NCBI GenBank assembly: GCA_035648735.1
Contig: DASRKX010000061.1
Coordinates: 528-64,527 of the forward strand
Source: Stellaceae bacterium
GTDB lineage: Bacteria > Pseudomonadota > Alphaproteobacteria > ATCC43930 > CGMCC-115725
DNA: 64,000 nucleotides
Reading direction: 5' to 3'
The translations under genes were made by a program, and so were the position numbers. Of this stretch, positions 27,655 through 54,542 are shown in pieces (within the stretch, counting starts at the first letter, position 1; the number at the start of each line of letters is the position of its first letter). The notes beneath the pieces were generated by a model. It did not search any database and was not told the DNA's origin. It saw nothing but the letters and a program-made list of their open reading frames with translations.

Positions 27655-27673
27655 GATTGCTCGGTGCGTCCGC

Positions 27674-28927: not shown

Positions 28928-28966
28928 GGGAGAGTAGCCTTCGATTTTTTTGTTGCATGGGATACA

Positions 28967-29746: not shown

Positions 29747-29774
29747 GGCTGACTCTCTGTCAAAAAAAGGCGAT

Positions 29775-30464: not shown

Positions 30465-30466
30465 GC

Positions 30467-31621: not shown

Positions 31622-31628
31622 GTTTTTC

Positions 31629-32636: not shown

Positions 32637-32707
32637 TGAAGATGCTTTCTTGAGCGATTGGGGCGGGTTGCGCCACCTCTACGCGAAATCGTGGCTAACG
32701 AACTCGT

Positions 32708-34377: not shown

Positions 34378-34388
34378 GCGGCCCGCAC

Positions 34389-35516
34389 CTAGGCGCGCGC
34401 TTTCAAGGCCGCGATGGTCTCGTCGACCATCCGCAGCGCTAGATCGGGCCCGCAAGGCAGATTGAAACCCTCGCGGCCGAACCGCTCGGAATTGGGGAAC
34501 GGTCCTTGCGTCGCGAAATGCGGGGCGGTGTGGCAGCACGGGACGAATTTGCGGGTCTGAATGCCTTGTTCGGCGAGATGGTCCATTAAACGGTCACGTT
34601 GCGGGCTGGTCACTTCGGTCCACAACGCGACCTCGCCCTCACTGACCGCCACCGGCAGAACCGAGACGAATGGCAGCCCGGCCAGACCTTCGACATAGCG
34701 GCGGTAGATCGCATTGACATGCGCGACCTTCTTTTCGCGCCGGCCGATCTGGACCACACCGATGGACGCGGCGATGTCGGTATATTTGAAATTGCCGCCG
34801 GGCCCGAGATAGGCGTGGCTGACGACGTCCGCCACGCCGTTGTCGCGAAAGCGGCGCAGCTTCTCATAAGTGGCCTTGTCACGGGTGACGACCGCACCGC
34901 CCTGCCCGGTCGCGATCAGCTTCACCATGCTGAAAGAGAAACAGCCGGCGTTGCCGATGGTGCCGTGATAGCCGAGCGGATGGCGGGAAAAGAGTCCCTG
35001 GCAGGCATCCTCGACGATGACGAGGCCGTGCTTGCGTGCCAGCGCCATGACTCCCGTCATGTCGGCGCCACGCCCGTTCAAATGCACCGGCATGATCGCG
35101 CGCGTCCGGCTGGTGATCTTGGCCGCCGCATCCTCGACGTCGAGCGTCGGTTGATCGGGAAGGCAATCCACCAGCACCGGCTTGGCGCCGAGCAGAAGCG
35201 CCGCATGCGCCGTGGCAATAAAGGTGCGCGTCGGCACCAGCACCTCGTCGCCCGGGCCGATCCCATGCACCGCCAGGCTCATCAGCAGCGCTGCCGTGCC
35301 GCTCGCCGTGCAGACGGCATAGGGCACTTCGATCTCCCGAGCGATCTGCGCTTCGAAGGCGGCAACGACCGGCCCCAAGCTGAATCGCTTGCGCGCCATG
35401 CTTTCGGCGACGGCGGCGCATTCCTCGGCGCCGATCTCGATGTGCCAAAACGGGATTTCTCCCGCTTCGGTGATGAAGCGGTTGGCCGCGCCGCTATTCG
35501 AAATAGATGAAGCCAT
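34389..35516 (-). CDS. DegT/DnrJ/EryC1/StrS-family PLP-dependent sugar aminotransferase
   Basis: CTASGTAALLMSL, VIVEDACQ, FSFSMVKLIATGQGG (PLP lysine context). Confidence 0.9.
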   Translation of the reverse strand: MASSISNSGAANRFITEAGEIPFWHIEIGAEECAAVAESMARKRFSLGPVVAAFEAQIAREIEVPYAVCTASGTAALLMSLAVHGIGPGDEVLVPTRTFIATAHAALLLGAKPVLVDCLPDQPTLDVEDAAAKITSRTRAIMPVHLNGRGADMTGVMALARKHGLVIVEDACQGLFSRHPLGYHGTIGNAGCFSFSMVKLIATGQGGAVVTRDKATYEKLRRFRDNGVADVVSHAYLGPGGNFKYTDIAASIGVVQIGRREKKVAHVNAIYRRYVEGLAGLPFVSVLPVAVSEGEVALWTEVTSPQRDRLMDHLAEQGIQTRKFVPCCHTAPHFATQGPFPNSERFGREGFNLPCGPDLALRMVDETIAALKARA

Positions 35517-36156
35517 AATCCCCGTTATAGCCGGCTTTGCGGAAAATCCATTCCCAGGCGGCGACGCTGTGGAAGCTCTGGCAGGTCAGCTGCCAGTAGA
35601 GCAAATTCGCCTTCTCCCGCTCGTTGCGCCAGGATTCGACCATGAGATATCCCGGTCCGCGCCCGACCCGCCGGATCTCGGCCAGCGCCTGAAACAACTC
35701 GCCGATCTCCAGATTGTGCAGCGTGGCGAGCGACAGGACAAAATCGAATTCGCCGTCGGCAAAGGGTAACTGGATCGCGTTGCCGACGGTCAGGAACGGC
35801 CGTGCCTCTTCCTTGGCATGCTCGATGCCGTAGGCGGAAATATCGAGGCCGCGGATTTCGATGCCCGGCACCACCTGGGTGAATTCATAGAGCAGATGCC
35901 CCTTGCCGCAGCCAATATCGAGGATGCGCATGCCGGGCTTCAAGCCATAATGCGCCGCCATGCAGTCTGCGACCTTCCGCCAGCGCCCGTCATAGTGGTA
36001 GCCGCCATAGCCGTAGCGGCGGTCGCCGTCCCAATAGTCGTGGCCCCACTGCCGCGCCACGGCGGCGGATTCCGCCTTGTCATGCGCCACCACGCGCTGA
36101 ACGTAGTCGCGCTTGGTCGCGGCGCTCAAGGATTGGATGAAGTCGAGCTGCGCCAT
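35494..36156 (-). CDS. Class I SAM-dependent methyltransferase
   Basis: Trimmed to ATG 36156. WGHDYWDGDRRYGYGGYHYDGRW, then MRILDIGCGKGHLL and FDFVLSLATLHN. Its last 23 nt overlap the aminotransferase start. Confidence 0.8.
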   Translation of the reverse strand: MAQLDFIQSLSAATKRDYVQRVVAHDKAESAAVARQWGHDYWDGDRRYGYGGYHYDGRWRKVADCMAAHYGLKPGMRILDIGCGKGHLLYEFTQVVPGIEIRGLDISAYGIEHAKEEARPFLTVGNAIQLPFADGEFDFVLSLATLHNLEIGELFQALAEIRRVGRGPGYLMVESWRNEREKANLLYWQLTCQSFHSVAAWEWIFRKAGYNGDYGFIYFE

Positions 36157-36158
36157 GC

Positions 36159-36560
36159 TCACAACGCCGTCGGGCAAGACGGCAGCAATTTGCGCACCAG
36201 CCAGATGTCCTCGACGCGCGTCACATCGGCCTCGGAACGCACCGCGATGCCTTCGAGCGCGCCGTGCAGGCTCGCGCCGGCGTCCAGCACACCCCGCCAC
36301 ACCTCTCGGCGACGCACCGGATCGTCCGGCAACATGCCGAGGCTGTAGCAGATAACGCCCTCGATCGCCGGCAGCTCGTCAAGCACCTGCTCCAGCATCA
36401 TGTAACATTCCGGCATGGCGTATTCGGTCGCCGACAGCAGGAAGCTCAGGCCCTTGCGCCGCGCATAATCCCGCACCACGAGATTCTGGACGTGCTGCGC
36501 GGTGCGCTCGCCGGCAATGGGCCGGCTGGCGATATAGCCGCGATAACCCAGCCGCGTCAT
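36159..36560 (-). CDS. 133-aa protein of unknown function
   Basis: Trimmed to ATG 36560 (ATGA overlap). MTRLGYRGYIASRPIAGERTAQHVQNLVVRDYARRKGLSF... I recognise no motif. Tightly coupled on both sides. Confidence 0.6.
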   Translation of the reverse strand: MTRLGYRGYIASRPIAGERTAQHVQNLVVRDYARRKGLSFLLSATEYAMPECYMMLEQVLDELPAIEGVICYSLGMLPDDPVRRREVWRGVLDAGASLHGALEGIAVRSEADVTRVEDIWLVRKLLPSCPTAL

Positions 36561-37357
36561 TCGGCAAAGCCGCCCGGCAGGCGATAGGCCGACCCCAGCC
36601 GCGTCGCCGGGCGGAGCGAGATCGGCTCGAAGAACTCGCCCAGCCGCTTGTCGGCATAGGGCGTGAAGGCGCCCTTGAAGCGGCAATTCATCGACCAGCG
36701 CGTCTCGCGCTCACGGTTCACGCGGTTGCCGTGCATCAGATTTTGCGAGAAGAGCAGGACATTGCCGTAGGGAATGTCGATGAATTTCAGCTCCGGCTCG
36801 ACCGCCTGATAGAGTTTTTCGGTCGAGCCGAACTCCGCCATGCGATCGTGGTAGCGCGCATGCGCGGCGGGGGGTAGCAGGAACATGCTCTTGGTCTTGC
36901 GGCAGTCGACCAGCGGGATCCACAGCACGACCTCGAAAGGCGAATCGCCGTTGAGCACGTCGGCGTGCAGCGGCAGCAGCGATCCCTCGTCGTCCGGCAG
37001 CTGGATCGAAAGATTGAGCCGCAGCTGCATGACCAATTCGTTGCCGACGATCGTCTCGATCGTCCGGCGCGCGGTGGCAAAATAGGCTGGCCGCGCCCAG
37101 TCCATCCCGTTGAGCCCGTCGAACACGGCGAGCCGCAGGGTGTTCAGCGCGTCGGGCGTGACGCGCTCGTGGATGGTGTCGAGGAAATTCTGCGGATTGT
37201 TCGGCGCCGGCAGGCCGAGATGCCGCGCGGCGAACGCCGCCGCATGGTCGCGGATGCGGTCGAGCGCGGCGCGATCCTCAGCCGGAAGGTTGAGGCAGCC
37301 GTCGGCAAGAAACGCCGCCGCCAGGCCTTGCTCTTCCGCCGTCAGGAAATTGCTCAT
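36557..37357 (-). CDS. Putative Fe(II)/2-oxoglutarate-dependent oxygenase
   Basis: Trimmed to ATG 37357 (ATGA overlap). PLHADVLNGD (HxD) and LFSQNLMHGN (distal His). Assignment by motif spacing only. Confidence 0.7.
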   Translation of the reverse strand: MSNFLTAEEQGLAAAFLADGCLNLPAEDRAALDRIRDHAAAFAARHLGLPAPNNPQNFLDTIHERVTPDALNTLRLAVFDGLNGMDWARPAYFATARRTIETIVGNELVMQLRLNLSIQLPDDEGSLLPLHADVLNGDSPFEVVLWIPLVDCRKTKSMFLLPPAAHARYHDRMAEFGSTEKLYQAVEPELKFIDIPYGNVLLFSQNLMHGNRVNRERETRWSMNCRFKGAFTPYADKRLGEFFEPISLRPATRLGSAYRLPGGFAE

Positions 37358-38286
37358 GGCCGGAGATCCGTGATCGTCTTGGCAATGCGCTCGGCGATCG
37401 GCCCGGGCTGGAGCCCCGCGATCTCCAGCAGATCGTCCTGCGAGCCGTAATGGCGCGGGAAGGCGTCGGGCAGCGCCAGGCGCAAAATTGGCGGTAGCGA
37501 GCCGCCGGCCGCCAGCAAGCAATCGGCGACGGCGCTGCCGAGGCCACCGGTGGCCACATGCTCCTCGACCGTCACCAGCAGTCGCAATCCCTGCGCGAAG
37601 CCGCGCACCGCATCGATATCGAGCGGCTTGACCGTGTGGCAATGGAGCACGCCCGCCTCGATGCCCTGCGCGGCGAGCCGGTCGGCGGCGCGCAGGCAGC
37701 GCTCCGTCAGCACGCCGGTCGAGATCATGCCGATCTGTCCCGGCGCGCGCTTGAGGATTGCCTTGCCGATCGCGAAATTCTCGTCATCCCGCGCGATCAC
37801 CGGATCGCCGCCCTTCCCGAGGCGGATATAGACCGGCCCCGGCCGGTCGAGCGTCGCGGTGACGGCGCGCCGCATTTCCTGAGCGTCCGAGGGCGCGATC
37901 ACGGTCATATTCGGCAGCGCGCGCAGAATCGCCATGTCCTCGATCGCGAGATGGGTCGGCCCGAGCGGCGCATAGACCACGCCGCCGCCATTGGCGATGA
38001 GACGGACCGGCAGGTTGTGCAGGCAAAGATCGACCGCCACCTGCTCGAAGCAGCGCCGCGTCAGGAAGGTGGCGATGGTGTTGACGAAGGGGATGAACCC
38101 CTCCATCGCCAGGCCTGCCGCCATGCCGACAATGTTCTGCTCCGCCACGCCTTCCATGAAAAAGCGGTCGGGCATCTCGGCCCGGAATTTGTCCATGGTG
38201 CCGACGCCGAGATCGGAGCCGATGAATACGACGCGCGGATCGCGCCGCGCCAGTTCCGTAACGGTATCGAGCGCGGTCTGGCGCAT
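37354..38286 (-). CDS. Transketolase-family protein, C-terminal (pyrimidine-binding) subunit
   Basis: Trimmed to ATG 38286. VVFIGSDLG, FFMEGVAEQNIVGMAAGLAMEGFIPFVNTIATF. Confidence 0.85.
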   Translation of the reverse strand: MRQTALDTVTELARRDPRVVFIGSDLGVGTMDKFRAEMPDRFFMEGVAEQNIVGMAAGLAMEGFIPFVNTIATFLTRRCFEQVAVDLCLHNLPVRLIANGGGVVYAPLGPTHLAIEDMAILRALPNMTVIAPSDAQEMRRAVTATLDRPGPVYIRLGKGGDPVIARDDENFAIGKAILKRAPGQIGMISTGVLTERCLRAADRLAAQGIEAGVLHCHTVKPLDIDAVRGFAQGLRLLVTVEEHVATGGLGSAVADCLLAAGGSLPPILRLALPDAFPRHYGSQDDLLEIAGLQPGPIAERIAKTITDLRP

Positions 38287-39122
38287 CAGCCGTTCTCCAG
38301 CGCGGCATACATGGCGGCGACCTGCTCCGGCTTGATCTTCGATTTGTGGTGCCAGGCCGCGTCGTTCTCGGCGAAAGGCAGGCCCTTGCCCTTGACCGTG
38401 TGGCAGATCACCGCGAGCGGCTTGGCGGCGCCGCGACGCGGTGCGAAGGCGGCGCGCAACGCCGCTACGTCGTGGCCGTCGACCTCGACGACATCGAAGC
38501 CGAAGGCGCGCCATTTGGCGCCGAGCGGCTCTAGCGGCTGAACCTCGGAAACCGAGCCATAGGACTGCATCTTGTTGTAATCGACGATGGCGGTGAGGCT
38601 GGACAGGCCGTGCTTGCCGGCGCACATCGCCGCTTCCCAAACGCTGCCCTCATCGATCTCGCCGTCGCCCATGGCGACGAAGACGCGGGCATCGGTCTTG
38701 CGGATGCGCGCGGCGAGCGCCACGCCGATGCCGATCGACAAGCCATGGCCCAAGGCGCCGGTGGATGCCTCGACGCCGGGAATCTTGCCGGCTTCGGGAT
38801 GGCCGCCGAGGAAACTGTCGCGCGTGCAGAAATCCGCGAGCTCCGCCGCCGGGAAATAGCCCTTATCGGCCAGGATGGCGTAGAGCGCCAGGCAGCCATG
38901 GCCCTTCGACAGGATGAACCGGTCGCGGCCCTGCCATTTCGGCTCCGCCGGCCGGTGACGCAGCACGTCGTCGTACAGCACGCGCAGGATTTCGATCAGC
39001 GACATCGAGGAACCGATGTGCCCGCGCCCACCGCCGTCAAGCGCCCGGACCACCAAGCGGCGCAGATCGCGCGAGCGGTTGTCGAGCCGAATGGCGTTCG
39101 GCAGGTTTACGGCTTTAGTCAC
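38286..39122 (-). CDS. Transketolase-family protein, N-terminal (ThDP pyrophosphate-binding) subunit
   Basis: GTG 39122 (GTGA overlap). GGRGHIGSSMSLIEIL, ILSKGHGCLALYA, VAMGDGEIDEGSVWEA (GDG...ThDP-Mg motif). TGATG junction with the C-terminal subunit. Confidence 0.85.
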   Translation of the reverse strand: MTKAVNLPNAIRLDNRSRDLRRLVVRALDGGGRGHIGSSMSLIEILRVLYDDVLRHRPAEPKWQGRDRFILSKGHGCLALYAILADKGYFPAAELADFCTRDSFLGGHPEAGKIPGVEASTGALGHGLSIGIGVALAARIRKTDARVFVAMGDGEIDEGSVWEAAMCAGKHGLSSLTAIVDYNKMQSYGSVSEVQPLEPLGAKWRAFGFDVVEVDGHDVAALRAAFAPRRGAAKPLAVICHTVKGKGLPFAENDAAWHHKSKIKPEQVAAMYAALENG

Positions 39123-40705
39123 GGCAGATCCTCGATTGCGGATGCGGTCCGCGCCAGCATGGCCTCGGCCTTGGCGAGCTGGCGCGTCTGGGCGGCGGCG
39201 CGATCGCCGTCGCCGTCGCCGGCGACGGCGCGGCGTGCCCAACGCTCCGGCAGGAATTCATTGAGCAGGATGAGGCACCAGCGCAACGCGTAAAGCGGTA
39301 GCTGCCTCTCAAGCCTTGCACGAAAGTTAGCGTCACCGGCATGAAGTTCGACCATGCCGCGAGCAAAGCGGCGGCGAGCGTCCGGATCGAGAGCCATGCC
39401 GGGATGCAGCAGGAAATCCGCGGTGAGCTTCACCGGATCGTCCCAGCCGAAATATTCGAAATCGACGAACACGATGCGGCCCTCAGCGGTGCGAAGCGCG
39501 TTATGGAAGCCGAAATCTGATGGGCTGAGCGTCCGCTGCGCGATCGGCAATTCCGCGGCCGGACTGTTGCCCGCCGTCAGCGCCGCACGCCGGCCGCACA
39601 GGCGCGCCAGGAAGTCGCGCAGCTGCGTCTCGCCCGCTGCAATTTCCGACAATCTTGTCTCGCGTGCGGCGGTCTGGCGCAGAATTTCCGCCGTCGAGAG
39701 ACAGGTCTCGGAGGCGAGCGGCAGCCCCGCAGCACCCGGCGCAGATCGGTAACCATGCAGCCGGCGCAGGAAATCCAACGCCGCGTCGATGTCGCCGTTA
39801 TTTGGGCTGGCGATGGGCGTGCCATCGATCCATTGATAGAGTGCCGCGCTCATCTCTCGACTCATCGCGATGGGCGCCGGCACGGCATCCTCGCCTTGCG
39901 CCTTGAGGAAGGACAGGGCGCCGTATTCCGTGCCCAGCCGATCGCGCGGATCGTCATCGGGGGACGGATAAGATTTCAGCGCCATGGCGCCATCCGCGCC
40001 GGCCACACGGTAGAGGCGATTATTGCCGCCCTGCAAAACGCGCACGACATCATTCACGGGCGCGCCGTTCAGCATGGCCGCAGCGGCGATCGCCGGATCG
40101 ATGCCCAAAAGATGGTCGGCGATCTCACGATGAGTGCGGAAGGCGCGAAAGCGTCCGCGCGGCAATTCGTCGTAGCCGGCAGCGTAAAGATAGGCACGAA
40201 TGTGGGCGGGAAAGTCCGGCTCGCCAAACACCTCGTCGAGGTCGTCGATGAAATGCGTGCAGCCGATGGACAGAATCCGGCGAATCTTGTCCTGACGCGT
40301 CGGCTCGAAGAACACGTTCTCGCGCGCCACGCCCATGCCGCGCTCGAACAAGCCGTTGGATTCCATCCAGATCATCGCCGCATTTCTAAGATCGGTCTCG
40401 GGATCGAAAGGGCTGAATTGCGTCTTGTGGCTAACGACCGCCACCGGAATGTTCCGCAGGCGGGCGCGTTCGAGCAGGGTCGCGATGCCGTCGGTGAGCC
40501 GCGCCCGGCCGATATCTCGGCCATAGGCGCGGGCCTGCAATTGCTGCCAGGCGATGTCGCCGCCCGGCCCGGCGCGCACCGCGTCGCGCACCGCCTTCTT
40601 GCCGCCGTAGAATGCCGCCGGCACCAATCCCATGTCGCGCGCCAAAGCCAAAAAGCCCTCGTCGTAACAGGCGATCGTATTGTCGAAATCGATTCCGATC
40701 AGCAC
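39119..40705 (-). CDS. Fusion protein: N-terminal HAD-superfamily phosphatase-like domain plus C-terminal APH/choline-kinase-fold phosphotransferase domain
   Basis: HAD motifs IGIDFDNT (DxDxT), VVSHKT, FIDDLDE. Kinase-fold motifs MALKSYP, SPSDFGFHNAL (DxxxxN), VFVDFEYFGWDDP. GTG start. Confidence 0.75.
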   Translation of the reverse strand: MLIGIDFDNTIACYDEGFLALARDMGLVPAAFYGGKKAVRDAVRAGPGGDIAWQQLQARAYGRDIGRARLTDGIATLLERARLRNIPVAVVSHKTQFSPFDPETDLRNAAMIWMESNGLFERGMGVARENVFFEPTRQDKIRRILSIGCTHFIDDLDEVFGEPDFPAHIRAYLYAAGYDELPRGRFRAFRTHREIADHLLGIDPAIAAAAMLNGAPVNDVVRVLQGGNNRLYRVAGADGAMALKSYPSPDDDPRDRLGTEYGALSFLKAQGEDAVPAPIAMSREMSAALYQWIDGTPIASPNNGDIDAALDFLRRLHGYRSAPGAAGLPLASETCLSTAEILRQTAARETRLSEIAAGETQLRDFLARLCGRRAALTAGNSPAAELPIAQRTLSPSDFGFHNALRTAEGRIVFVDFEYFGWDDPVKLTADFLLHPGMALDPDARRRFARGMVELHAGDANFRARLERQLPLYALRWCLILLNEFLPERWARRAVAGDGDGDRAAAQTRQLAKAEAMLARTASAIEDLP

Positions 40706-40716
40706 CCGGACCGAAC

Positions 40717-41724
40717 CTATTTAAGCTTCAGTTCCTGCATCCGCTTGATATTGAAATAGAGCGGATTGTTGAGCGGGTCCTGCAGCTTCCCCGTTTTCAG
40801 CGCGTCGACCAGACCGCCGACGGCATCGGCGATGGTGTATTTGAGCTCGAAGCCGATGTCCTTCCGGATGCGCTTGCCGGAGACGTGATAGGAGCGCGGA
40901 TCGTTGGTCGGCACCGTCTCGATCGCGACATGGTCGCCGACCGCCTTGCGCACCATCGCCGCGAGATCGACGATCGGATGATTCTCGTCGCCGGCGTTCC
41001 AGATCTTGCCGTCGATCGCTTCGTCGGGCTGCGCCAGCAGATGCAGATAGACCCGCGCCATGTCCTCGATATGAATGTTGGGGCGCTTCTGCGTACCGCC
41101 GAAGACCTTGATCTTGCCGGCATGGAAGGCCTGGTTGGTGAAGATGTTCACCACGACGTCCATGCGCTGGCGCGGCGCATAGCCGCACACCGTCGAGGGA
41201 CGGATGGAGCACACCACGAAACCCGGCGCGCGCTCTTCCAGCAATTCCATCTCGCACAACGCCTTGAACTTGGAATAATCGGTCAGCGGCGCAAGCGGCA
41301 AATCCTCATGCACTTCGGGTTCGTCCTTGACGCCATAGACCGACGAGGACGACGCGAAGATGAAACGCTTGACCCCTGCCGCCTTGGAGGCGCGGACCAA
41401 CGGGCGAAACGCCGCGTGGTTGATCGACTTACCGAGCCCCGGATCGAGATCGTAGGACGGGTCGTTCGAGATGCAGGCAAGGTGAAGGACGCAATCGCAG
41501 CCCTTGAGAGCGTCGGCGACAGTCCTCGGATCGCGGATGTCGCCCTTGATCTCGCGCAGGCGCGGATTGCCGCGCACGGCGGCGAGCGCATCGTCGCCAT
41601 ACATATAGAGGTCGAGCACGGTCACCGCGTGCCCCGCCTCGAGCAGCCGGGGAACCAGCACGCTGCCGACATAGCCGGCGCCGCCGGTCACCAGAACGTT
41701 CCATTTTTTCTCGGCGATTGTCAT
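40717..41724 (-). CDS. NAD-dependent epimerase/dehydratase (extended SDR)
   Basis: VLVTGGAGYVGSVL, FASSSSVYG, YSKFK (YxxxK). Confidence 0.85.
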   Translation of the reverse strand: MTIAEKKWNVLVTGGAGYVGSVLVPRLLEAGHAVTVLDLYMYGDDALAAVRGNPRLREIKGDIRDPRTVADALKGCDCVLHLACISNDPSYDLDPGLGKSINHAAFRPLVRASKAAGVKRFIFASSSSVYGVKDEPEVHEDLPLAPLTDYSKFKALCEMELLEERAPGFVVCSIRPSTVCGYAPRQRMDVVVNIFTNQAFHAGKIKVFGGTQKRPNIHIEDMARVYLHLLAQPDEAIDGKIWNAGDENHPIVDLAAMVRKAVGDHVAIETVPTNDPRSYHVSGKRIRKDIGFELKYTIADAVGGLVDALKTGKLQDPLNNPLYFNIKRMQELKLK

Positions 41725-41740
41725 GCCCGATCGGACTCCG

Positions 41741-43303
41741 TCATTTCAGCAGGGTATTGACGAATTTCATCAGCGGAATCTTTTCCACCGACTGCCGGTG
41801 GCCGACGATGCCGACCTTGATGGCGCCGGCGGCGTTGCCGACGAAGCCGACATCGGCCATATGTCCGCCGACGGCGACGAGCGGCGCGGTGACGGCGAAG
41901 AACGCGTCGCCGGCGCCGACCGTGTCGACCACCGTCTTAGTGAAGGCCGGAATGCGGGTGACGCCTTCGCCGGGTGAGTAGGTGTAGCAGCCGGACGATC
42001 CCTGCGTCACGATGGCCTTGCGGCATCCGGTGATGCGCGGCAACACCTCGCCCACCACTTCCGCGATATCGCTGTACTTGTCGCTGGTGGCAAGCCGCGC
42101 CTCAGGCGCATCGATGCAGACGTAGTCCGCGTTCCGATATTTGCTGATCAAATTATAGCCCTGGTTGCCGGCGTTGGTTTGCGCATTGACGGCAAGGAAC
42201 TTCGCATTCTTCCTCAACACATCAACTAGGCCGTGCCCGATCATGCCGTGCCCGAAATCGTTGACGATGACGAGATCAGCCGCTTTGACTTTATCCCGCA
42301 CGAGTTCGGTCAATCCCGCTTCCTCACTTGAAGGCAGCGGCCGGTCATCCATGAAATAGACCTCGAACAGCTTGCGCATATACGAGCCGGGATCGACATA
42401 GCGCAGCTTCCTGGTAGTCGGACGGTCGGTGACCTGGACGACCCCGAGGCGAACATTGGGTTTTATATTCCGGCGGATCATTTCCTCGTAGGGACAATCC
42501 TTCGCCAGCGTGGTGATTACTTCGACCTCGGCACAGAACGCAGCGACATGGTTTGCGGTAGCGACCACGCCGCCGGCGAAGATTTCGGTTCCCTGATACA
42601 AGCTGGCAATGATGTGTTCCTTGGAGGGCTTACCGAGATTTCCGACGTATTGATATTCGTCGATGATCGTGTCGCCCACGATCAGAACCTTCAAACGGCT
42701 CACTTTTTCAATCAACACACGGATGCGTTGGGGACCGCCACCGGCCCGCAAGCCGTCGAGGAAATCGCGCAACGGCGGGTCGTAGACGTCGAGATAGCGA
42801 TTGATCAAGTTCGACGATGAAAAGGTGATATCGCGCGTGAACACCAACCGCCCGCCATGTCGTTCCACCGCCTCGCGTTCGTCGGTGATCTTGCCGGTGA
42901 TGTCTTCCTCAGGATTCTCGTAATCGGATCCCTTGACGTAGACATCGGGCCGGATGGTATCGAGGACCGTTTCGGCGTCGGACGCGTCGTTGATGCCGAC
43001 GTAATCGACGTATTCGAGGGCTGCCAGCATCTCGGCGCGCATCTCCTGGCCGAAGATCGGCCGTCCCGGCCCCTTGTTGACGAAACGGTCGGCGGTAAGC
43101 GTGACGACGAGTACGTCGCCTTCGGCCCGTGCCGCTTCCAGGTGGCGGACGTGACCCATATGCACCAGGTCAAAGACGCCGTGGCAGAGAACGATCTTTT
43201 GCTTGCGCTTGCGGGCTTCATCCGCCAGGCGGCCCAATTCTGCAATGGCATGGATTTTCCGGCGCGCGGGGCGGACCGATGCCGGAACCGTCGAACGCGT
43301 CAC
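41741..43303 (-). CDS. Bifunctional cytidylyltransferase-like (N-terminal) / PfkB sugar kinase (C-terminal) protein; HldE/RfaE-like domains in inverted order
   Basis: N-terminal IVLCHGVFDLVHMGHVRHLEAA (HxGH), EYVDYVG. C-terminal VLIVGDTIIDEY and DTVGAGDAFFAV (PfkB signature). GTG start abuts the upstream TAA. Confidence 0.8.
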   Translation of the reverse strand: MTRSTVPASVRPARRKIHAIAELGRLADEARKRKQKIVLCHGVFDLVHMGHVRHLEAARAEGDVLVVTLTADRFVNKGPGRPIFGQEMRAEMLAALEYVDYVGINDASDAETVLDTIRPDVYVKGSDYENPEEDITGKITDEREAVERHGGRLVFTRDITFSSSNLINRYLDVYDPPLRDFLDGLRAGGGPQRIRVLIEKVSRLKVLIVGDTIIDEYQYVGNLGKPSKEHIIASLYQGTEIFAGGVVATANHVAAFCAEVEVITTLAKDCPYEEMIRRNIKPNVRLGVVQVTDRPTTRKLRYVDPGSYMRKLFEVYFMDDRPLPSSEEAGLTELVRDKVKAADLVIVNDFGHGMIGHGLVDVLRKNAKFLAVNAQTNAGNQGYNLISKYRNADYVCIDAPEARLATSDKYSDIAEVVGEVLPRITGCRKAIVTQGSSGCYTYSPGEGVTRIPAFTKTVVDTVGAGDAFFAVTAPLVAVGGHMADVGFVGNAAGAIKVGIVGHRQSVEKIPLMKFVNTLLK

Positions 43304-44308
43304 TTAATTTTTCCCTCGGCCGAGATACTTGAACCAATCCGCCGTCGCCGCCGCGATGCTTTCCGGCGTCCAGATCGGCGCGTCGCGCCAAAGATCGATG
43401 TTCTCGAGCAGCCGGCCGATGCCCTCTTCCAAGCTCACGCGCGGACGCCACCCCAGACGCTGCTTGATGCGGGAAATATCGGCCCAAGTGCAGTCGGGCT
43501 CGCCGGGGCGCTTCGGAATATAGACCGACTGGCCGCCCAGCAGCTCGACGATGCGGTTGACGCTGTAGGTGCCGTCGGAGCCGACATTCATTATCTCGCC
43601 GGTAAGCGCGCTGGCGGCGGCGGCGACAAAAGCGCCGGTCACGTCAGTCACATAGGTGAAGTCACGCGTCTGGGTTCCATCGCCAACGATGGTGTAGGGC
43701 TTGCCGGCGAGCTTCTGCGCCAGGAACACGCCGAACATGGCGCCATAGCTGCCCGAGGTGCGGTGGCGCGGCCCATAGACATTGAAGAGACGAAGGGACA
43801 ACGCTGGCAGGCCATAAAGCTGCGCCCAATGCAAGACGAGCTCCTCGCCCAGCCGCTTGGTGAGCGCATAGGGATATTGCGGTTGGATCGCGGCGGTTTC
43901 CGGCGTCGGATAGACGTCTGGAATGCCGTAACAGGACGACGAGGCGGCATAAAGAAATCGCTCGACGCGATGGGCGCGCGCCGCTTCCAGCACGGCCATA
44001 GTGCCGTCGACATTGGCGCGAAAATAATCCAGCGGCTGGCGAATGGACGGCACGATGTCGGCAAGCGCCGCGAAATGGAACACCCATTTGACGCCTTCCA
44101 TCGTGCCGTCGAGCGCGCCGGCATCCGCGATATCGGCCACATGAACGGTCAACCGCGGATTGCTGCGATGCTGCACCAGATTGTCCGGCCGACCGGTGAC
44201 CATGTTGTCGACCACCACGACCGCGTGCCCATCGGCGATCAAGCGATCAACCATGTGGCTGCCGATGAAGCCGGCGCCGCCGATGACGAGAGATTTATGC
44301 TGGGACAA
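43304..44308 (-). CDS. NAD-dependent epimerase/dehydratase (extended SDR)
   Basis: No ATG near the Rossmann start. I chose TTG 44308 (AGGA 4 nt upstream), giving MSQHKSLVIGGAGFIGSHMV. ASSSCYG, YALTK. Confidence 0.8.
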   Translation of the reverse strand: MSQHKSLVIGGAGFIGSHMVDRLIADGHAVVVVDNMVTGRPDNLVQHRSNPRLTVHVADIADAGALDGTMEGVKWVFHFAALADIVPSIRQPLDYFRANVDGTMAVLEAARAHRVERFLYAASSSCYGIPDVYPTPETAAIQPQYPYALTKRLGEELVLHWAQLYGLPALSLRLFNVYGPRHRTSGSYGAMFGVFLAQKLAGKPYTIVGDGTQTRDFTYVTDVTGAFVAAAASALTGEIMNVGSDGTYSVNRIVELLGGQSVYIPKRPGEPDCTWADISRIKQRLGWRPRVSLEEGIGRLLENIDLWRDAPIWTPESIAAATADWFKYLGRGKN

Positions 44309-44324
44309 GGAATCCTGTGTCTGG

Positions 44325-45260
44325 TTAAAGGCGAATGCCGTGCTTGGCGAGCAGCGATTCGTTATCGGCACGGTAATAGTCCTTGATCCGGCGGGCCGCC
44401 TCCGGCGAGGGCGTGACGTCAAACTTTTTTCCGCCCACGAGCCAATTGCGGAAAACCGCCTTGAGCGGCGGCGGCAGCAACGGCCCGAGGCCGCGGCCGC
44501 CGGTCAGCCGCGCGCGCAACCGGTTAGCGGTATAGAGCCGCTCCATCTGGTGCTCGTTCTCGCGGACATTCGTCGTTCGCGCCAGGCACGGATCGCGCTC
44601 ATCGATGCCAATGAATCGACAGAGGCGCTGCAAGACGGTAATGGGATCGGCCCGGAAATCCTCGAAGGCATAAACCAGGATGTTCCCCTCGCCCACCAGC
44701 GCCGCGTAGCGATCGATCATGGCCGCATAGCGGAAGCTGTCCAAGAACGCGCCGCAGACATAGCGGAAATGAATGTCGAGATAGTGGTCGAAATCGGGAT
44801 ACCAGTTCTGCCTGGTGCCGGGAATGCCCGTCATCTCGCCGCGATGCTCGGTGAGGTAATTGCTCTTGATCAACGATAGCTGATCGCGCACGCAGAAGAT
44901 CACCCGAAACGGCGCCAAGGGCGCGAAGATATCCATGACGCGCCGCAGCTTGGCCATGCCATCCACGCCGGTGAATACGCTCAGGCCTTCATCCGAAAGA
45001 ACCACGGGCCGCCCGCCGGATTCCCGGGCGACCGATTCGACCAAAATACGCGTTACTTGAGGATCGGGCGCGAAATCGAGACCGCCGGCCTCGATCTGCT
45101 TCATCAGCGCGCCAATTGGCGGAGTCCGCCAGCCCTCGTAGGCGCGCGCGCGATCAACGTTCTTGCCCAGGAAAAACAGCCCGGGATGCGCCGGGAAGAA
45201 CGCGTTTTGCAGCGTCGAGGTCGCGGTCTTTGGCGAGCCGATATGGACGATCAGGGTCAC
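44325..45260 (-). CDS. Putative sulfotransferase-family protein
   Basis: GTG 45260 (GTGA overlap). VHIGSPKTATSTLQNAFF resembles the PAPS 5-prime-phosphosulfate-binding loop (PKxGTT). Tentative. Confidence 0.5.
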   Translation of the reverse strand: MTLIVHIGSPKTATSTLQNAFFPAHPGLFFLGKNVDRARAYEGWRTPPIGALMKQIEAGGLDFAPDPQVTRILVESVARESGGRPVVLSDEGLSVFTGVDGMAKLRRVMDIFAPLAPFRVIFCVRDQLSLIKSNYLTEHRGEMTGIPGTRQNWYPDFDHYLDIHFRYVCGAFLDSFRYAAMIDRYAALVGEGNILVYAFEDFRADPITVLQRLCRFIGIDERDPCLARTTNVRENEHQMERLYTANRLRARLTGGRGLGPLLPPPLKAVFRNWLVGGKKFDVTPSPEAARRIKDYYRADNESLLAKHGIRL

Positions 45261-53921: not shown

Positions 53922-54542
53922 TCAGAACCGAACCCGTCCCAAATGTCCGTCCTCAATGACGGCGTGACGGATGAACTGAGCCAGGACGTGCATCAGGCTT
54001 TGGTGGACATCCTCGGACACGCCGTAATTATCGGCCGCGACGTGGATGCCGATATCCGCGAGCGTCATCGCGGTACCGCCGTCGAAGCCGGTCAGGGCGA
54101 TGGTTGCAACCCTGTTGTCGCGCGCCCAGCGGAGCGCGCGGCAGACATTCTCCGAGTTGCCGGACGAACTGATCGCGATGAGCGCGTCGCCCGACCGCGC
54201 CGCCCGTGAAAGCTGAAACGCGAAGATTTCGGCGTATTCGATGTCATTGGCGATGGCGGTGATGATCTCGACGCCAGTGCTCAGCGACTGGACGCGCGGG
54301 CGCAGGTTGGTATGGGTGGACATGCCCTTGGCGAAATCGCAATGCAGGTGGTTGGAAATCGCCGCCGACCCGCCATTGCCGCAAGCGAAGATCTGACCGT
54401 CCTTTTCGACGGTCTCAATCAACAGACGCGCCGCACTATCGAGTGCTGCGCGGTCCACCGAGGCGAGCGCCCTTCCCACTTCCGCCGCATAGGCATCGAG
54501 ATAGGCGCCGACGCCGGAGAATTTCTGATCAGGGAAGATCAT
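53922..54542 (-). CDS. gmhA: SIS-domain sugar-phosphate isomerase, GmhA (sedoheptulose-7-phosphate isomerase)-like
   Basis: IFACGNGGSAAISNHLHCDFAKG, LIAISSSGNSENV, TIALTGFDGG. Confidence 0.8.
   Translation of the reverse strand: MIFPDQKFSGVGAYLDAYAAEVGRALASVDRAALDSAARLLIETVEKDGQIFACGNGGSAAISNHLHCDFAKGMSTHTNLRPRVQSLSTGVEIITAIANDIEYAEIFAFQLSRAARSGDALIAISSSGNSENVCRALRWARDNRVATIALTGFDGGTAMTLADIGIHVAADNYGVSEDVHQSLMHVLAQFIRHAVIEDGHLGRVRF

What the first reader, a model, noticed from the sequence alone, without database searches (positions are those of the whole stretch)
36159..39122. Tightly coupled cassette with no assignable chemistry: split transketolase, 2OG oxygenase and a 133-aa orphan inside a sugar operon
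Four genes are chained by 1-4 nt stop/start overlaps: TktN-like 38286-39122, TktC-like 37354-38286, putative Fe(II)/2OG oxygenase 36557-37357, and a 133-aa protein 36159-36560. This suggests they are co-translated as a unit. The transketolase halves keep the ThDP motifs (GHIGSS, GDGEIDEG, EGVAEQN), so they look catalytically competent. This is not a pentose-phosphate context. ThDP enzymes are known to add two-carbon branches to keto-sugar nucleotides; examples are YerE in yersiniose biosynthesis and the pyruvate-dehydrogenase-like pairs in branched-sugar antibiotic pathways. A transketolase-type enzyme acting on a sugar nucleotide, or extending a sugar chain towards a higher-carbon sugar, would be unusual chemistry. 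From memory, TIGRFAMs describes 'sporadic carbohydrate cluster' families (a LIC12192-type small protein and a 2OG-Fe(II) oxygenase) without assigned function. This cassette may be an instance, but I cannot verify that here.
Basis: partly seen in the sequence, partly recalled or inferred. Interest (0 to 1): 0.8.

Follow-up and report, generated by a model that had tools for sequence, protein, structure and literature searches.

The report
Transketolase-based unusual sugar pathway cassette
The four overlapping genes are real and sit inside a widespread, catalogued but uncharacterised cluster of about ten genes that probably builds and decorates an unusual activated sugar for bacterial surface or flagellar glycans, using a transketolase whose substrate pocket has been rebuilt.

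Summary
TktN, TktC, a 2OG oxygenase and a 133-aa protein lie at the stated coordinates on the minus strand, joined by 1, 4 and 4 nt overlaps.

The four genes are not the evolutionary unit. In 80 related genome loci they straddle two modules.

- Module A is an HldE-like nucleotidyltransferase+PfkB kinase, a GmhA-like isomerase, SDR(s), a HAD phosphatase, an APH-like kinase, TktN and TktC.
- Module B is the 2OG oxygenase, the LIC12192 protein and a methyltransferase. It is adjacent in 80/80 loci and fused in some organisms.

Each module can occur alone.

The transketolase keeps its cofactor and catalytic residues. Four of the five canonical acceptor/phosphate-binding residues are replaced, and this is family-wide (Ser→Gly, His→Gly, Asp→Leu, Arg→Lys).

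Best reading, by inference: a specialised transketolase makes a non-standard ketose. This is phosphorylated, isomerised and nucleotide-activated as in the ADP-heptose and lincomycin GDP-octose pathways, then hydroxylated and O-methylated by module B. I found no published function. I rate it a new variant of a known pathway logic, of moderate interest.

The parts
38286..39122 (-). TktN: N-terminal (ThDP diphosphate-binding) half of a split transketolase-like enzyme, 278 aa, GTG start.
   Evidence: PF00456 at 167.5 bits. Closest solved structure is the split transketolase of C. hydrogenoformans, 6yak, E 7e-75. H35, H75, H108, H258, G152-D153-G154 and N183 are invariant in 57 orthologs. Family-specific invariant residues are H126 and H259.
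37354..38286 (-). TktC: pyrimidine-binding plus C-terminal half of the split transketolase-like enzyme, 310 aa, with a remodelled acceptor pocket.
   Evidence: PF02779 + PF02780. PDB 6yaj at E 1e-54, with an alignment to human TK 4kxu. Glu49 and Arg2 are kept. Ser345→Gly29, His416→Gly100, Asp424→Leu108 and Arg474→Lys158 (human numbering) hold in 55-62 of 62 orthologs (Gly29 55, Lys158 61, Gly100 and Leu108 62). The YAPLG motif is in 120/120 nearest database homologs.
36557..37357 (-). Fe(II)/2-oxoglutarate oxygenase, PhyH-type fold, 266 aa.
   Evidence: TIGR04324 at 287.6 bits against cutoff 150. H131, D133, H209 and R220 are invariant. AF2 model has pLDDT 87. Foldseek hits are ThoJ, SyrB2, GriE, PtlH, SnoN, PhyH, HygX and AviO1, at E 1e-10 to 1e-8.
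36159..36560 (-). LIC12192-family small protein, 133 aa, with a three-layer alpha/beta fold. Obligate partner of the oxygenase.
   Evidence: TIGR04323 at 156.4 bits against cutoff 55. AF2 pLDDT 93. Best fold matches are serine-recombinase catalytic domains, TM 0.62, E 3.5e-4, with no sequence-level relation. It follows the 2OG gene in 80/80 loci. It is fused to an MT220-type methyltransferase in P0430.
35494..36156 (-). Class I SAM methyltransferase (MT220). Third member of the tailoring trio (module B).
   Evidence: Pfam Methyltransf_31/11/25. Directly downstream of LIC12192 in 53 of the 70 loci where it was found. 42% identical over its full length to the C-terminal part of the natural LIC12192 fusion P0430.
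39119..40705 (-). 528-aa fusion. N-terminal HAD-type phosphatase (about residues 1-200) plus C-terminal APH/choline-kinase-like small-molecule kinase. Overlaps TktN by 4 nt.
   Evidence: No Pfam, NCBIfam or PDB hit for the whole protein. HAD motifs D6-x-D8-x-T10, S92, K140 and D154-D155 are conserved in 24 sequences. The kinase profile hits corramycin phosphotransferase 8agy at E 1.9e-7 and choline kinase. Catalytic-loop residues D202/H206/N207 and D220-F-E are invariant. Orthologs carry PF01636 APH. In many genomes the two halves are separate genes. The kinase gene directly precedes TktN in 48/57 loci.
40717..41724 (-). SDR335: NAD-dependent sugar epimerase or reductase of module A.
   Evidence: PF01370 at 150 bits. 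Weak matches to GalE, LegB and heptose 6-epimerase models. Found in 43 of the 80 loci and in all three TktC-seeded loci.
41741..43303 (-). HldE-like bifunctional protein with reversed domain order: N-terminal nucleotidyltransferase plus C-terminal PfkB sugar kinase, 520 aa.
   Evidence: PF01467 + PF00294. rfaE_dom_II at 118 bits and rfaE_dom_I at 113.8 bits, both below cutoff. Present in 46 of 80 loci.
43304..44371 (-). SDR355: 4,6-dehydratase/epimerase-type SDR at the head of the conserved cassette.
   Evidence: PF01370 at 198 bits and PF16363 at 190 bits. GalE, LegB and RmlB models all below cutoff. Gene call. 59-71% identical orthologs precede the HldE-like gene in other loci.
53922..54542 (-). 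GmhA-like SIS-domain sugar-phosphate isomerase. Lies about 15 kb upstream in the same island. The in-cluster equivalent sits between the HldE-like gene and SDR335 in 25 other loci.
   Evidence: PF13580 SIS_2 at 80 bits. TIGR00441 gmhA at 110 bits, below the 209 cutoff. The G-N-G-x-S and S-S-S-G-x-S loops are conserved with the in-cluster family. Family 9 is described.

Best explanation
The four genes are the middle of a conserved cluster of about ten genes that makes and tailors an unusual nucleotide-activated sugar for a surface glycan: LPS or capsule here, flagellin in several alphaproteobacteria.

Module A builds the sugar.
1. The split transketolase-like enzyme TktN/TktC transfers a two-carbon ketol unit onto a non-standard aldehyde acceptor. 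This gives a ketose that central metabolism does not supply: a modified heptulose or a longer, C8-type ketose.
2. The APH-like kinase encoded immediately upstream phosphorylates it.
3. A GmhA-like isomerase converts it to the aldose phosphate.
4. The PfkB domain of the HldE-like protein phosphorylates C1.
5. The HAD phosphatase removes the distal phosphate.
6. The nucleotidyltransferase domain makes the NDP-sugar.
7. The SDRs epimerise, dehydrate or reduce it.

This is the logic of the ADP-heptose pathway and of the lincomycin GDP-octose pathway. Here a transketolase takes the place of the carbon-carbon bond-forming transaldolase LmbR.

Module B tailors the sugar. The 2OG oxygenase works with its obligate small partner LIC12192 to hydroxylate a C-H position. 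The adjacent (elsewhere fused) methyltransferase O-methylates it.

What is shown: gene content, order, coupling, co-occurrence, domain identities, retained catalytic residues and the remodelled transketolase pocket.

What is inferred: the order of steps, the substrates, the role of each kinase, the hydroxylate-then-methylate role of module B, and the identity of the final sugar.
For: Cluster composition and order were tabulated in 80 loci seeded on LIC12192 and in 3 loci seeded on TktC.

Together with the in-cluster GmhA-like gene (25 loci; a GmhA-like gene lies 15 kb upstream in this window), module A carries every activity of the ADP-heptose route:
- SIS isomerase.
- PfkB kinase plus nucleotidyltransferase, with best matches to the rfaE domains.
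- HAD phosphatase with intact motifs.
- SDR.

It then has exactly two extras: the Tkt pair and an APH-like kinase. These two are the tightest neighbours, with the kinase directly upstream of TktN in 48/57 loci and a 4-nt overlap in this window.

L087 has module A alone, ending at TktC and followed by housekeeping genes. L040, L051 and L068 have module B alone.

The transketolase keeps its cofactor and catalytic residues. These include the two His that bind the donor's C1 hydroxyl, so ketol transfer is the likely chemistry. The residues that clamp the acceptor's phosphate and 2-OH in canonical enzymes are replaced in 55-62 of 62 orthologs, depending on the residue, and in 120/120 nearest homologs. 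The role of those residues is established knowledge from the yeast transketolase-erythrose-4-phosphate complex.

Transketolases can make octulose 8-phosphate. LmbR makes the octulose 8-phosphate that feeds lincomycin's octose.

For module B:
- 2OG→LIC12192 adjacency is 80/80.
- A natural LIC12192-MT220 fusion is preceded by a 2OG gene.
- The facial triad and 2OG-binding Arg are intact.
- The fold family includes sugar-modifying oxygenases SnoN, HygX and AviO1.
Against: - There is no biochemical or glycan-structure data for any member. Seven literature searches found nothing on this cluster.
- The GmhA-like gene is in-cluster in only 25 of 80 loci. In this window it lies 15 kb away, so its link to the cassette here is weaker.
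- TktC still has Arg2 and Lys158 and gains an invariant Arg77. A phosphorylated, perhaps longer, substrate cannot be excluded, and the APH-like kinase might do something else.
- 11 of 68 loci with enough flank have no Tkt gene within 10 kb. The 2OG/LIC12192 pair therefore does not strictly need the Tkt product. In L033 the pair sits next to GDP-mannose 4,6-dehydratase.
- LIC12192 has no assignable activity.
Confidence: 0.45

Rival explanations
1. Distal chain extension on an already activated sugar. The HldE-like, GmhA-like and HAD enzymes make an ordinary NDP-heptose. An SDR or the 2OG oxygenase creates an aldehyde at its far end, for example after 6-deoxygenation. The transketolase then adds two carbons there, giving a C9 NDP-sugar.
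For: Asp→Leu at the position that reads the acceptor's alpha-hydroxyl fits an acceptor with a CH2 next to the aldehyde. The two Gly substitutions enlarge the pocket, as a bulky nucleotide-sugar would need. A 4,6-dehydratase-type SDR heads the cassette. TktC is directly followed by the 2OG gene in 45/61 loci.
Against: Module A occurs without any 2OG gene nearby (L087). The APH-like kinase, the tightest partner of the Tkt pair, is left without a role. No enzyme that would make the aldehyde has been identified. There is no precedent for a transketolase acting on a nucleotide sugar.
Confidence: 0.15
2. Two-carbon branching of an NDP-4-keto-6-deoxy sugar. The enzyme would work like YerE/ErwE or the E1-like pairs of antibiotic pathways, followed by reduction of the branch by an SDR.
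For: ThDP enzymes do add acyl branches to CDP-4-keto-3,6-dideoxyglucose (YerE, ErwE). Dehydratase-type SDRs are in the cassette. This window also encodes a CDP-glucose 4,6-dehydratase at 26557-27654. The acceptor pocket is remodelled.
Against: TktN/TktC are transketolase/DXS-type, not the decarboxylase type of YerE. The only match there is a 16.7-bit sub-threshold hit to TPP_enzyme_C. The His residues that hold the donor's CH2OH are retained, which points to ketol transfer rather than acetyl transfer. The CDP-hexose genes are not conserved with the cassette: the NTP transferase appears in 1/80 loci. The strong linkage to kinase, phosphatase and isomerase points to sugar phosphates.
Confidence: 0.12
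3. An ordinary split transketolase that simply boosts the local supply of sedoheptulose 7-phosphate for a heptose pathway.
For: The cluster has the full heptose-activation enzyme set. The nearest solved structure is a genuine split transketolase. All cofactor and catalytic residues are present.
Against: Ser, His, Asp and Arg of the canonical phosphate and 2-OH binding site are replaced in essentially every ortholog. The combined NCBIfam score for the two halves, 259.7 + 215.3, is below the transketolase equivalog cutoff of 488. The extra APH-like kinase would be unnecessary if the product were already phosphorylated.
Confidence: 0.1
4. A glycolyl or dihydroxyethyl donor system, like the two-component transketolases of quinocarcin/naphthyridinomycin biosynthesis. 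It would supply an N-acyl group for an amino sugar or for the nonulosonic acid also encoded in this window.
For: Split transketolases that divert a C2 unit from ketose phosphates are known (my own knowledge: QncN/QncL, NapB/NapD). The window encodes NeuC, NeuB, a CMP-synthetase and an aminotransferase downstream. Some loci insert two DegT-type genes right after TktC.
Against: No acyl carrier protein, lipoyl/E2 partner or acyltransferase is found among the co-occurring families. NeuB and NeuC are near the cassette in only 3 and 1 of 80 loci. Most loci lack an aminotransferase within the flanks.
Confidence: 0.05

Closest known systems
TIGRFAMs/NCBIfam 'sporadic carbohydrate cluster' (TIGR04323 LIC12192 family; TIGR04324 2OG-Fe(II) oxygenase)
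   Same: Both proteins score well above the curated cutoffs. NCBI and JGI already annotate the identical and related proteins with these names. The pair is adjacent, as the family definition implies.
   Different: The family names carry no function. This analysis adds three points: the pair forms a trio with a methyltransferase (fusions); it is separable from the transketolase module; and the small protein has a resolvase-like alpha/beta fold.
ADP-L-glycero-beta-D-manno-heptose pathway (GmhA, HldE, GmhB, HldD)
   Same: The same five activities are encoded together: SIS isomerase, PfkB kinase, HAD phosphatase, cytidylyltransferase-like nucleotidyltransferase and SDR. Best model hits are to the gmhA and rfaE domains.
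   Different: All scores are below the equivalog cutoffs. The HldE-like protein has the reverse domain order. The HAD matches no curated model. A transketolase and an APH-like kinase are added, and 2OG/methyltransferase tailoring follows.
Lincomycin GDP-octose pathway (LmbR transaldolase, LmbN isomerase, LmbP kinase, LmbK phosphatase, LmbO nucleotidyltransferase)
   Same: The logic is the same. A dedicated carbon-carbon bond-forming enzyme makes a higher ketose phosphate, which is then isomerised, phosphorylated at C1, dephosphorylated and nucleotide-activated. The gene functions are listed, and LmbR's formation of the octulose from ribose-5-P.
   Different: Here the bond-forming enzyme is a transketolase (C2 transfer), not a transaldolase (C3 transfer). 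The kinases belong to different families. The cluster sits in glycan, not antibiotic, loci. There is no sequence homology to LmbR.
Split transketolase of Carboxydothermus hydrogenoformans (PDB 6YAJ/6YAK) and human transketolase (4KXU)
   Same: Same two-gene architecture and fold, at E 7e-75 and 1e-54. The ThDP/Mg motif, cofactor-activating Glu and four catalytic His are conserved.
   Different: The canonical substrate residues are replaced: Ser345→Gly, His416→Gly, Asp424→Leu, Arg474→Lys. New invariant residues appear: TktC R77, D86, E137, D161 and TktN H126, H259.
YerE/ErwE ThDP enzymes that branch CDP-4-keto-3,6-dideoxyglucose
   Same: They are ThDP-dependent carbon-carbon bond formation in LPS sugar biosynthesis.
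   Different: They belong to a different ThDP enzyme superfamily branch (decarboxylase type, single chain). They use 2-keto-acid donors and a ketone acceptor on a nucleotide sugar. None of these features is indicated here.
PhyH-type 2OG oxygenases acting on sugar moieties (SnoN, HygX, AviO1)
   Same: Same fold class (Foldseek E 1e-9 to 1e-8), with an HxD...H triad and an Arg for 2OG.
   Different: TM scores are only 0.5-0.6 and identity 14-20%. The family profile finds no sequence match in the PDB. None of the known enzymes has an obligate resolvase-fold partner.

Membership tests
TIGR04323 (LIC12192 family sporadic carbohydrate cluster protein) | HMM score at or above the curated cutoff (55 bits), full-length match | tested here: met
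   156.4 bits, residues 5-126 on model positions 1-122 of 122.
TIGR04323 (LIC12192 family sporadic carbohydrate cluster protein) | Encoded next to a TIGR04324 oxygenase in a carbohydrate cluster | tested here: met
   4-nt overlap in the window. 80/80 related loci.
TIGR04324 (sporadic carbohydrate cluster 2OG-Fe(II) oxygenase) | HMM score at or above the curated cutoff (150 bits) | tested here: met
   287.6 bits. An identical protein is so named by NCBI.
Fe(II)/2-oxoglutarate oxygenase superfamily | HxD/E...H iron triad and a basic residue for the 2OG C5 carboxylate, on a jelly-roll fold | tested here: met
   H131, D133, H209 and R220 are invariant in 18 and 28 sequences. Foldseek places the model among PhyH-type oxygenases.
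Transketolase (EC 2.2.1.1) | ThDP/Mg2+ binding motif (GDG...N) and cofactor-activating Glu | tested here: met
   G152-D153-G154 and N183 are invariant in 57 orthologs. TktC Glu49 is in 61/62.
Transketolase (EC 2.2.1.1) | Catalytic and donor-binding histidines (human His37, His77, His110, His258) | tested here: met
   H35, H75, H108 and H258 are invariant in 57 orthologs.
Transketolase (EC 2.2.1.1) | Sugar-phosphate and 2-OH binding residues (human Arg318, Ser345, His416, Asp424, Arg474) | tested here: not met
   Only Arg318 (Arg2) is kept. The others are Gly29, Gly100, Leu108 and Lys158 in 55-62 of 62 orthologs. 0/120 nearest homologs are canonical.
Transketolase (EC 2.2.1.1) | NCBIfam equivalog score cutoff | tested here: not met
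   Best model is NF004559. The two halves score 259.7 + 215.3 bits against a cutoff of 488.
Transketolase (EC 2.2.1.1) | Xylulose-5-P + ribose-5-P ketol transfer activity | not testable with these tools
   Needs an enzyme assay.
ADP-heptose-type activation pathway (GmhA/HldE/GmhB/HldD) | All of isomerase, C1 kinase, phosphatase, nucleotidyltransferase and epimerase encoded together and matching the equivalog models | tested here: inconclusive
   All activities are present. Every score is below the equivalog cutoff, the domain order in the HldE-like protein is reversed, and in this window the isomerase lies 15 kb away.
YerE-type branched-sugar ThDP carboligase | Decarboxylase-type ThDP enzyme (TPP_enzyme_N/M/C domains) | tested here: not met
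   Only a sub-threshold 16.7-bit hit to TPP_enzyme_C. The domains are Transketolase_N, Transket_pyr and Transketolase_C.
Glycolyl-ACP-forming two-component transketolase (QncN/QncL type) | Carrier protein or lipoyl-E2 partner encoded in the cluster | tested here: not met
   No such family appears among the co-occurring families in 80 loci or in the window.
Serine recombinase (resolvase) catalytic domain | Sequence-level homology, with a nucleophilic Ser in the conserved motif and a DNA-binding domain | tested here: not met
   There is fold resemblance only (TM 0.62). The protein is 133 aa with no extra domain.

The most novel reading that the evidence does not exclude
TktN/TktC found a new transketolase subfamily. 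Its rebuilt acceptor pocket lets it make a ketose that no known pathway supplies, for example an octulose or a 4-modified heptulose. This would open a de novo, transketolase-initiated route to a new higher-carbon or otherwise unprecedented nucleotide sugar, used on LPS and on flagellins of many environmental bacteria. The 2OG oxygenase, with a resolvase-fold adaptor protein and a methyltransferase, would form a new three-part hydroxylation/O-methylation machine for sugars.
Probability: 0.35. Interest if true: 0.75.

Novelty: new variant of a known kind. Interest (0 to 1): 0.55.

Why it matters
Bacterial surface and flagellar glycans contain many rare sugars whose biosynthesis is unknown. This cluster has been catalogued for years as a 'sporadic carbohydrate cluster' with no chemistry assigned.

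This analysis shows that it combines a complete heptose/octose-style activation pathway with a transketolase whose substrate-binding residues are systematically replaced. That turns a vague annotation into concrete experiments: which acceptor, which ketose, which NDP-sugar.

If the model is right, it would add a transketolase-initiated route to non-standard sugars, alongside the aldolase (NeuB) and transaldolase (LmbR) routes. It would also provide a naturally evolved transketolase with altered acceptor scope, of interest for biocatalysis. The same positions (E. coli Asp469, His461, Arg520) are the ones engineered in the laboratory to widen acceptor range; this is my own knowledge. Finally, it would assign roles to two function-less protein families.

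If the enzyme turns out to be an ordinary transketolase, the finding is routine.

Tried and rejected
- **Literature.** Searches for the TIGRFAM names, LIC12192, and transketolase combined with nonulosonic acid, O-antigen, flagellin glycosylation, Leptospira rfb and phosphoheptose isomerase found nothing on this cluster. The one recurring hit, a Clostridium butyricum genomics paper, mentions transketolase only as a pentose-phosphate gene. The Sasaki 2012 LmbR/LmbN paper is not held.
- **Plasmids.** A search of the plasmid collection with the LIC12192 protein found no match.
- **The 528-aa protein.** Sequence searches against Pfam, NCBIfam and the PDB found nothing. Its two domains were recognised only from motifs, an ortholog profile and Pfam hits of orthologs.
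- **The 2OG family profile** found nothing in the PDB by sequence. Only the fold search was informative.
- **LIC12192 as a diverged serine recombinase.** Rejected at the sequence level (hhalign probability 0.1%). The fold match is modest (TM 0.62).
- **The cassette as part of the nonulosonic acid pathway.** Rejected. NeuB and NeuC are near the cassette in only 3 and 1 of 80 loci.
- **P0501, an apparent 2OG-LIC12192 fusion.** The linker looks like out-of-frame translation across the overlapping genes, so I did not use it.
- **Promoter/terminator scan of 26000-45900.** Fewer sites than the shuffled expectation, so it was uninformative.
- **Leptospira.** I could not reach the founding LIC12192 locus.

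Full report
**Observation.** The minus strand of the window carries four open reading frames at exactly the stated coordinates. Each is in frame with a single terminal stop.

- TktN: 38286-39122, GTG start, 278 aa.
- TktC: 37354-38286, 310 aa.
- 2OG oxygenase: 36557-37357, 266 aa.
- Small protein: 36159-36560, 133 aa.

The junctions read TGATG, ATGA and ATGA, giving overlaps of 1, 4 and 4 nt. The coupling continues on both sides. The upstream 528-aa gene overlaps TktN by 4 nt (GTGA). The downstream methyltransferase begins 2 nt after the small gene's stop. A simple terminator scan of 26000-45900 gives fewer hits than shuffled sequence, so nothing suggests an interruption.

**Family assignments.** Pfam assigns Transketolase_N to TktN and Transket_pyr + Transketolase_C to TktC. 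It finds nothing for the other two proteins. NCBIfam places the oxygenase in TIGR04324 (287.6 bits, cutoff 150) and the small protein in TIGR04323, the LIC12192 family (156.4 bits, cutoff 55).

The same DNA occurs in three public metagenome assemblies. NCBI annotates the identical proteins, from a Stellaceae MAG, as 'sporadic carbohydrate cluster 2OG-Fe(II) oxygenase' and 'transketolase C-terminal domain-containing protein'.

**Surroundings in the window.** In transcription order the operon reads as follows.

1. Methyltransferase.
2. 311-aa unknown protein.
3. SDR (4,6-dehydratase/epimerase type).
4. 520-aa protein with an N-terminal cytidylyltransferase-like domain and a C-terminal PfkB kinase. 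Its best matches are the two HldE (rfaE) domains, but in reverse order.
5. A second SDR.
6. The 528-aa protein.
7. TktN, TktC, the 2OG oxygenase and LIC12192.
8. Methyltransferase, then a DegT aminotransferase.
9. Sugar C-methyltransferase, then a VOC-fold protein.
10. NeuB, NeuC, a CMP-sugar synthetase and an NTP transferase.
11. A second C-methyltransferase, then CDP-glucose 4,6-dehydratase.

The rest of the 64-kb window is also polysaccharide biosynthesis. It holds glycosyltransferases, many methyltransferases, an MBOAT, an ABC transporter, a GLF-like mutase, a radical SAM/SPASM enzyme, UDP-glucose dehydrogenase and a GmhA-like SIS isomerase at 53922-54542. There is no flagellin.

**Co-occurrence.** A profile of the small protein recovered 217 relatives in the species-representative genome collection. 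I fetched the 80 best loci with 10-kb flanks. They are mostly Alphaproteobacteria (Azospirillum, Skermanella, Paramagnetospirillum relatives, Reyranella). Acidobacteriota, Geothrix, Bdellovibrionales, a cyanobacterium, Methylococcales and others are also present. The distribution is indeed sporadic.

tblastn with the window's proteins, plus all-against-all clustering of the loci's ORFs, give a conserved order:

SDR – HldE-like – (GmhA-like isomerase, 25 loci) – SDR – HAD – APH-like kinase – TktN – TktC – (two DegT-like genes in some) – 2OG – LIC12192 – (radical SAM in 16 loci) – methyltransferase – (second methyltransferase) – RmlD-like reductase.

| Adjacent pair | Loci |
|---|---|
| 2OG → LIC12192 | 80/80 |
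| TktN → TktC | 56/57 |
| LIC12192 → methyltransferase | 53/70 |
| Kinase → TktN | 48/57 |
| TktC → 2OG | 45/61 |

Tkt genes lie within the locus in 57 of 68 loci that have at least 3 kb upstream. They are absent in 11. NeuB and NeuC are near the cassette in only 3 and 1 loci, so the cassette does not depend on the nonulosonic acid genes that follow it here.

**Two modules.** The four genes straddle a boundary.

Module B (2OG, LIC12192, methyltransferases, RmlD-like reductase) occurs without any Tkt or HldE-like gene:
- directly after the housekeeping genes scpA/scpB and next to flagellin, FlaF/FlbT-like genes and a TPR-glycosyltransferase of the FlmG type (L040, L051, L068);
- after GDP-mannose 4,6-dehydratase (L033);
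- as the bare 2OG/LIC12192 pair among Lon, ClpX and YihY (L059).

Conversely, sampling seeded on TktC homologs found one locus (L087) where module A ends at TktC and is followed by an ABC transporter, Tat genes and SerS. There module A is HldE-like – SIS – SDR – HAD – kinase – TktN – TktC. Two other TktC-seeded loci carry the full cluster.

A natural fusion protein, P0430, joins a LIC12192 domain to a methyltransferase that is 42% identical to the window's MT220 over its whole length. A 2OG homolog precedes it. Another fusion, P0401, joins LIC12192 to a different class I methyltransferase. So the Tkt pair belongs with the kinase/phosphatase/isomerase/HldE-like set. The oxygenase and the small protein belong with the methyltransferase.

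**The transketolase.**

*What is kept.* The closest solved structures are the two chains of the split transketolase of Carboxydothermus hydrogenoformans (E 7e-75 and 1e-54) and human transketolase. In 57 TktN orthologs the following are invariant:
- the ThDP/Mg motif (G152-D153-G154, N183);
- the four active-site histidines H35, H75, H108 and H258, equivalent to human His37, 77, 110 and 258.

TktC keeps the cofactor-activating Glu49. Two of those histidines hold the donor's C1 hydroxyl in canonical enzymes (established knowledge). Transfer of a dihydroxyethyl (ketol) unit therefore remains the likely chemistry.

*What is replaced.* In the yeast enzyme-erythrose-4-phosphate complex, five residues bind the acceptor's phosphate and its 2-hydroxyl: Arg359, Ser386, His469, Asp477 and Arg528. 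The human equivalents are Arg318, Ser345, His416, Asp424 and Arg474 (established knowledge). Only the first survives, as Arg2. The others are Gly29, Gly100, Leu108 and Lys158 in 55-62 of 62 orthologs.

The resulting motif is N-G-G-G-x-V-Y-A-P-L-G-P-T-H, in place of T-H-A-G-x-x-x-G-E-D-G-x-S-H. It is present in all 120 nearest database homologs, and none has the canonical form. New invariant residues appear: TktC Arg77, Asp86, Glu137 and Asp161, and TktN His126 and His259. A paralogous TK-like gene in a second sugar cluster (L043) is also non-canonical.

This is not an ordinary pentose-phosphate transketolase. It fails a defining feature of that family and also the NCBIfam equivalog cutoff.

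**The other unknowns.**

*The 528-aa protein* has no hit in Pfam, NCBIfam or the PDB. It is nevertheless a fusion. Residues 1-200 carry all four HAD phosphatase motifs (D6xD8xT10, S92, K140, D154-D155), conserved in 24 sequences. The C-terminal part is an APH/choline-kinase-type phosphotransferase. Evidence for the kinase:
- catalytic-loop and DFE residues are invariant;
- the profile hits corramycin phosphotransferase at E 1.9e-7;
- orthologs carry PF01636.

In many genomes the two halves are separate genes.

*The oxygenase* has an invariant H131-x-D133...H209 triad and Arg220. Its model (pLDDT 87) matches PhyH-type oxygenases, including sugar-modifying SnoN, HygX and AviO1. TM scores are only 0.5-0.6.

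*LIC12192* models confidently (pLDDT 93) as a three-layer alpha/beta domain. Its best structural matches are serine-recombinase catalytic domains (TM 0.62). A profile comparison with gamma-delta resolvase shows no sequence relation. Its family is modest in size (513 clusters at E<=1e-10) and almost always stand-alone.

**Mechanism.** Together with the GmhA-like isomerase, module A contains every activity of the ADP-heptose pathway: SIS isomerase, PfkB C1-kinase, HAD phosphatase, nucleotidyltransferase and SDR. That isomerase is in-cluster in 25 loci and lies 15 kb upstream in this window. Module A then has exactly two additions, the transketolase and an extra kinase, and these two are each other's tightest neighbours.

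The simplest reading that gives every enzyme a job runs as follows.

1. The specialised transketolase makes a ketose that central metabolism does not provide.
2. The APH-like kinase phosphorylates it.
3. The SIS enzyme isomerises it.
4. The PfkB domain phosphorylates C1.
5. The HAD domain removes the distal phosphate.
6. The nucleotidyltransferase activates it.
7. The SDRs modify it.

This is the logic of lincomycin's GDP-octose pathway, where the transaldolase LmbR makes the octulose that feeds an isomerase, kinase, phosphatase and nucleotidyltransferase. Transketolases are known to make octulose 8-phosphate from hexose phosphates.

The pocket changes fit an acceptor that is longer, unphosphorylated, or not hydroxylated at C2. 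Two glycines replace His and Ser, and a leucine replaces the Asp that reads the 2-hydroxyl. The changes do not say which of these applies.

Module B most plausibly hydroxylates and then O-methylates the sugar, with LIC12192 as a substrate-binding or adaptor subunit.

All of these steps are inferred. What is shown is gene content, linkage, domain identity and residue conservation. I put 0.45 on this model as a whole. I put more, about 0.75, on the weaker statement that the Tkt pair is a specialised sugar-building enzyme of a heptose/octose-style NDP-sugar pathway.

**Rivals.**

- Chain extension at the far end of an already activated heptose (0.15). This fits the Asp→Leu change and the enlarged pocket. 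It leaves the kinase idle and needs an aldehyde-forming step that is not identified.
There are precedents in LPS sugars. The enzyme type differs, the retained histidines argue for ketol rather than acetyl transfer, and the CDP-hexose genes of this window are not conserved with the cassette.
- An ordinary transketolase topping up sedoheptulose 7-phosphate (0.10). The family-wide loss of the canonical substrate residues contradicts this.
- A glycolyl-donor system like the quinocarcin two-component transketolase (0.05). No carrier-protein or E2 partner is present.

**Novelty.** The cluster is catalogued (TIGR04323/TIGR04324) and the very proteins are annotated, so as a gene family it is known. 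I found no publication on its function in seven searches of the held library.

In terms of mechanism it is best described as a new variant of the heptose/octose nucleotide-sugar pathways. It is initiated by a transketolase subfamily with a rebuilt acceptor site and finished by an oxygenase/adaptor/methyltransferase trio.

Interest is moderate. It gives glycobiologists and ThDP enzymologists a concrete, testable target and is likely to lead to a new sugar. It extends known logic rather than overturning anything.

Noticed in passing
window 26557-29746 (minus strand): A separate CDP-hexose branch: CDP-glucose 4,6-dehydratase (26557-27654; TIGR02622 at 416 bits, above cutoff), a TylC3-type sugar C-methyltransferase (27674-28927) and an NTP transferase (28967-29746). 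It suggests that a C-methylated 6-deoxyhexose is also made in this island.
   Followed up: partly
window 29775-32636 and 13505-14743 (minus strand): A nonulosonic-acid set directly downstream of the cassette: CMP-sugar synthetase, NeuC (TIGR03568 at 397 bits, above cutoff) and a NeuB-like synthase (342 bits, below the 400 cutoff). A second UDP-GlcNAc 2-epimerase-type gene lies at 13505-14743. These genes are not conserved with the cassette elsewhere.
   Followed up: partly
window 27674-28927, 33124-34377, 58868-60010: Three paralogous sugar C-methyltransferases (Methyltransf_13/14 domains) in one island, plus at least eight other methyltransferases (TylF, FkbM, class I). This points to an unusually heavily methylated glycan.
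   Followed up: no
window 44325-45260 (minus strand): A 311-aa protein between the first methyltransferase and SDR355 has no Pfam hit. By eye, its N-terminus (IGSPKTATSTL) resembles the PAPS-binding loop of sulfotransferases. This was not tested.
   Followed up: no
window 49930-52208 (minus strand): A radical SAM/SPASM enzyme (49930-51090) and a GLF-like flavoenzyme (51087-52208) lie side by side. 52-56% identical homologs of both recur together downstream of the cassette in several other loci (L019, L035, L048, L055). They may be further tailoring enzymes of the same sugar.
   Followed up: partly
L015, L016, L027, L028, L037, L040, L068 (downstream of the cassette); L086, L087: In many alphaproteobacterial loci the cassette lies next to flagellin genes, FlaF/FlbT-like genes, a roughly 985-aa TPR + glycosyltransferase protein of the FlmG type, or a FlaEY-domain protein. 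This suggests that the sugar decorates flagellin in those organisms. The window itself looks like an LPS or capsule island.
   Followed up: partly
L043 19214-20110 (minus strand): A paralogous transketolase-C-like gene (36% identity) sits in a second sugar cluster of the same contig, beside SDR, DegT and NTP-transferase genes. It also lacks the canonical His and GEDG motif (its motif is GYDHATLTH). This hints at a wider clade of glycan-associated transketolase-like enzymes.
   Followed up: partly
P0430 (contig L084 584-1645), P0401, P0361: Natural fusions of the LIC12192 domain: to an MT220-type methyltransferase (P0430), to another class I methyltransferase through a Cys-rich linker (P0401), and a tandem duplication (P0361).
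   Followed up: yes
L086 6948-8117 and 12356-13525: Two copies of a DDE transposase (DDE_Tnp_1/DUF4372) are inserted inside the cluster. One lies between the kinase and TktN, the other after the DegT pair. The operon is interrupted in that genome.
   Followed up: no
L036 4092-4880; L066 16167-16952: A second, divergent paralog of the 2OG oxygenase (31-34% identity, triad intact) sits without a LIC12192 partner, next to a C-methyltransferase in L036.
   Followed up: no
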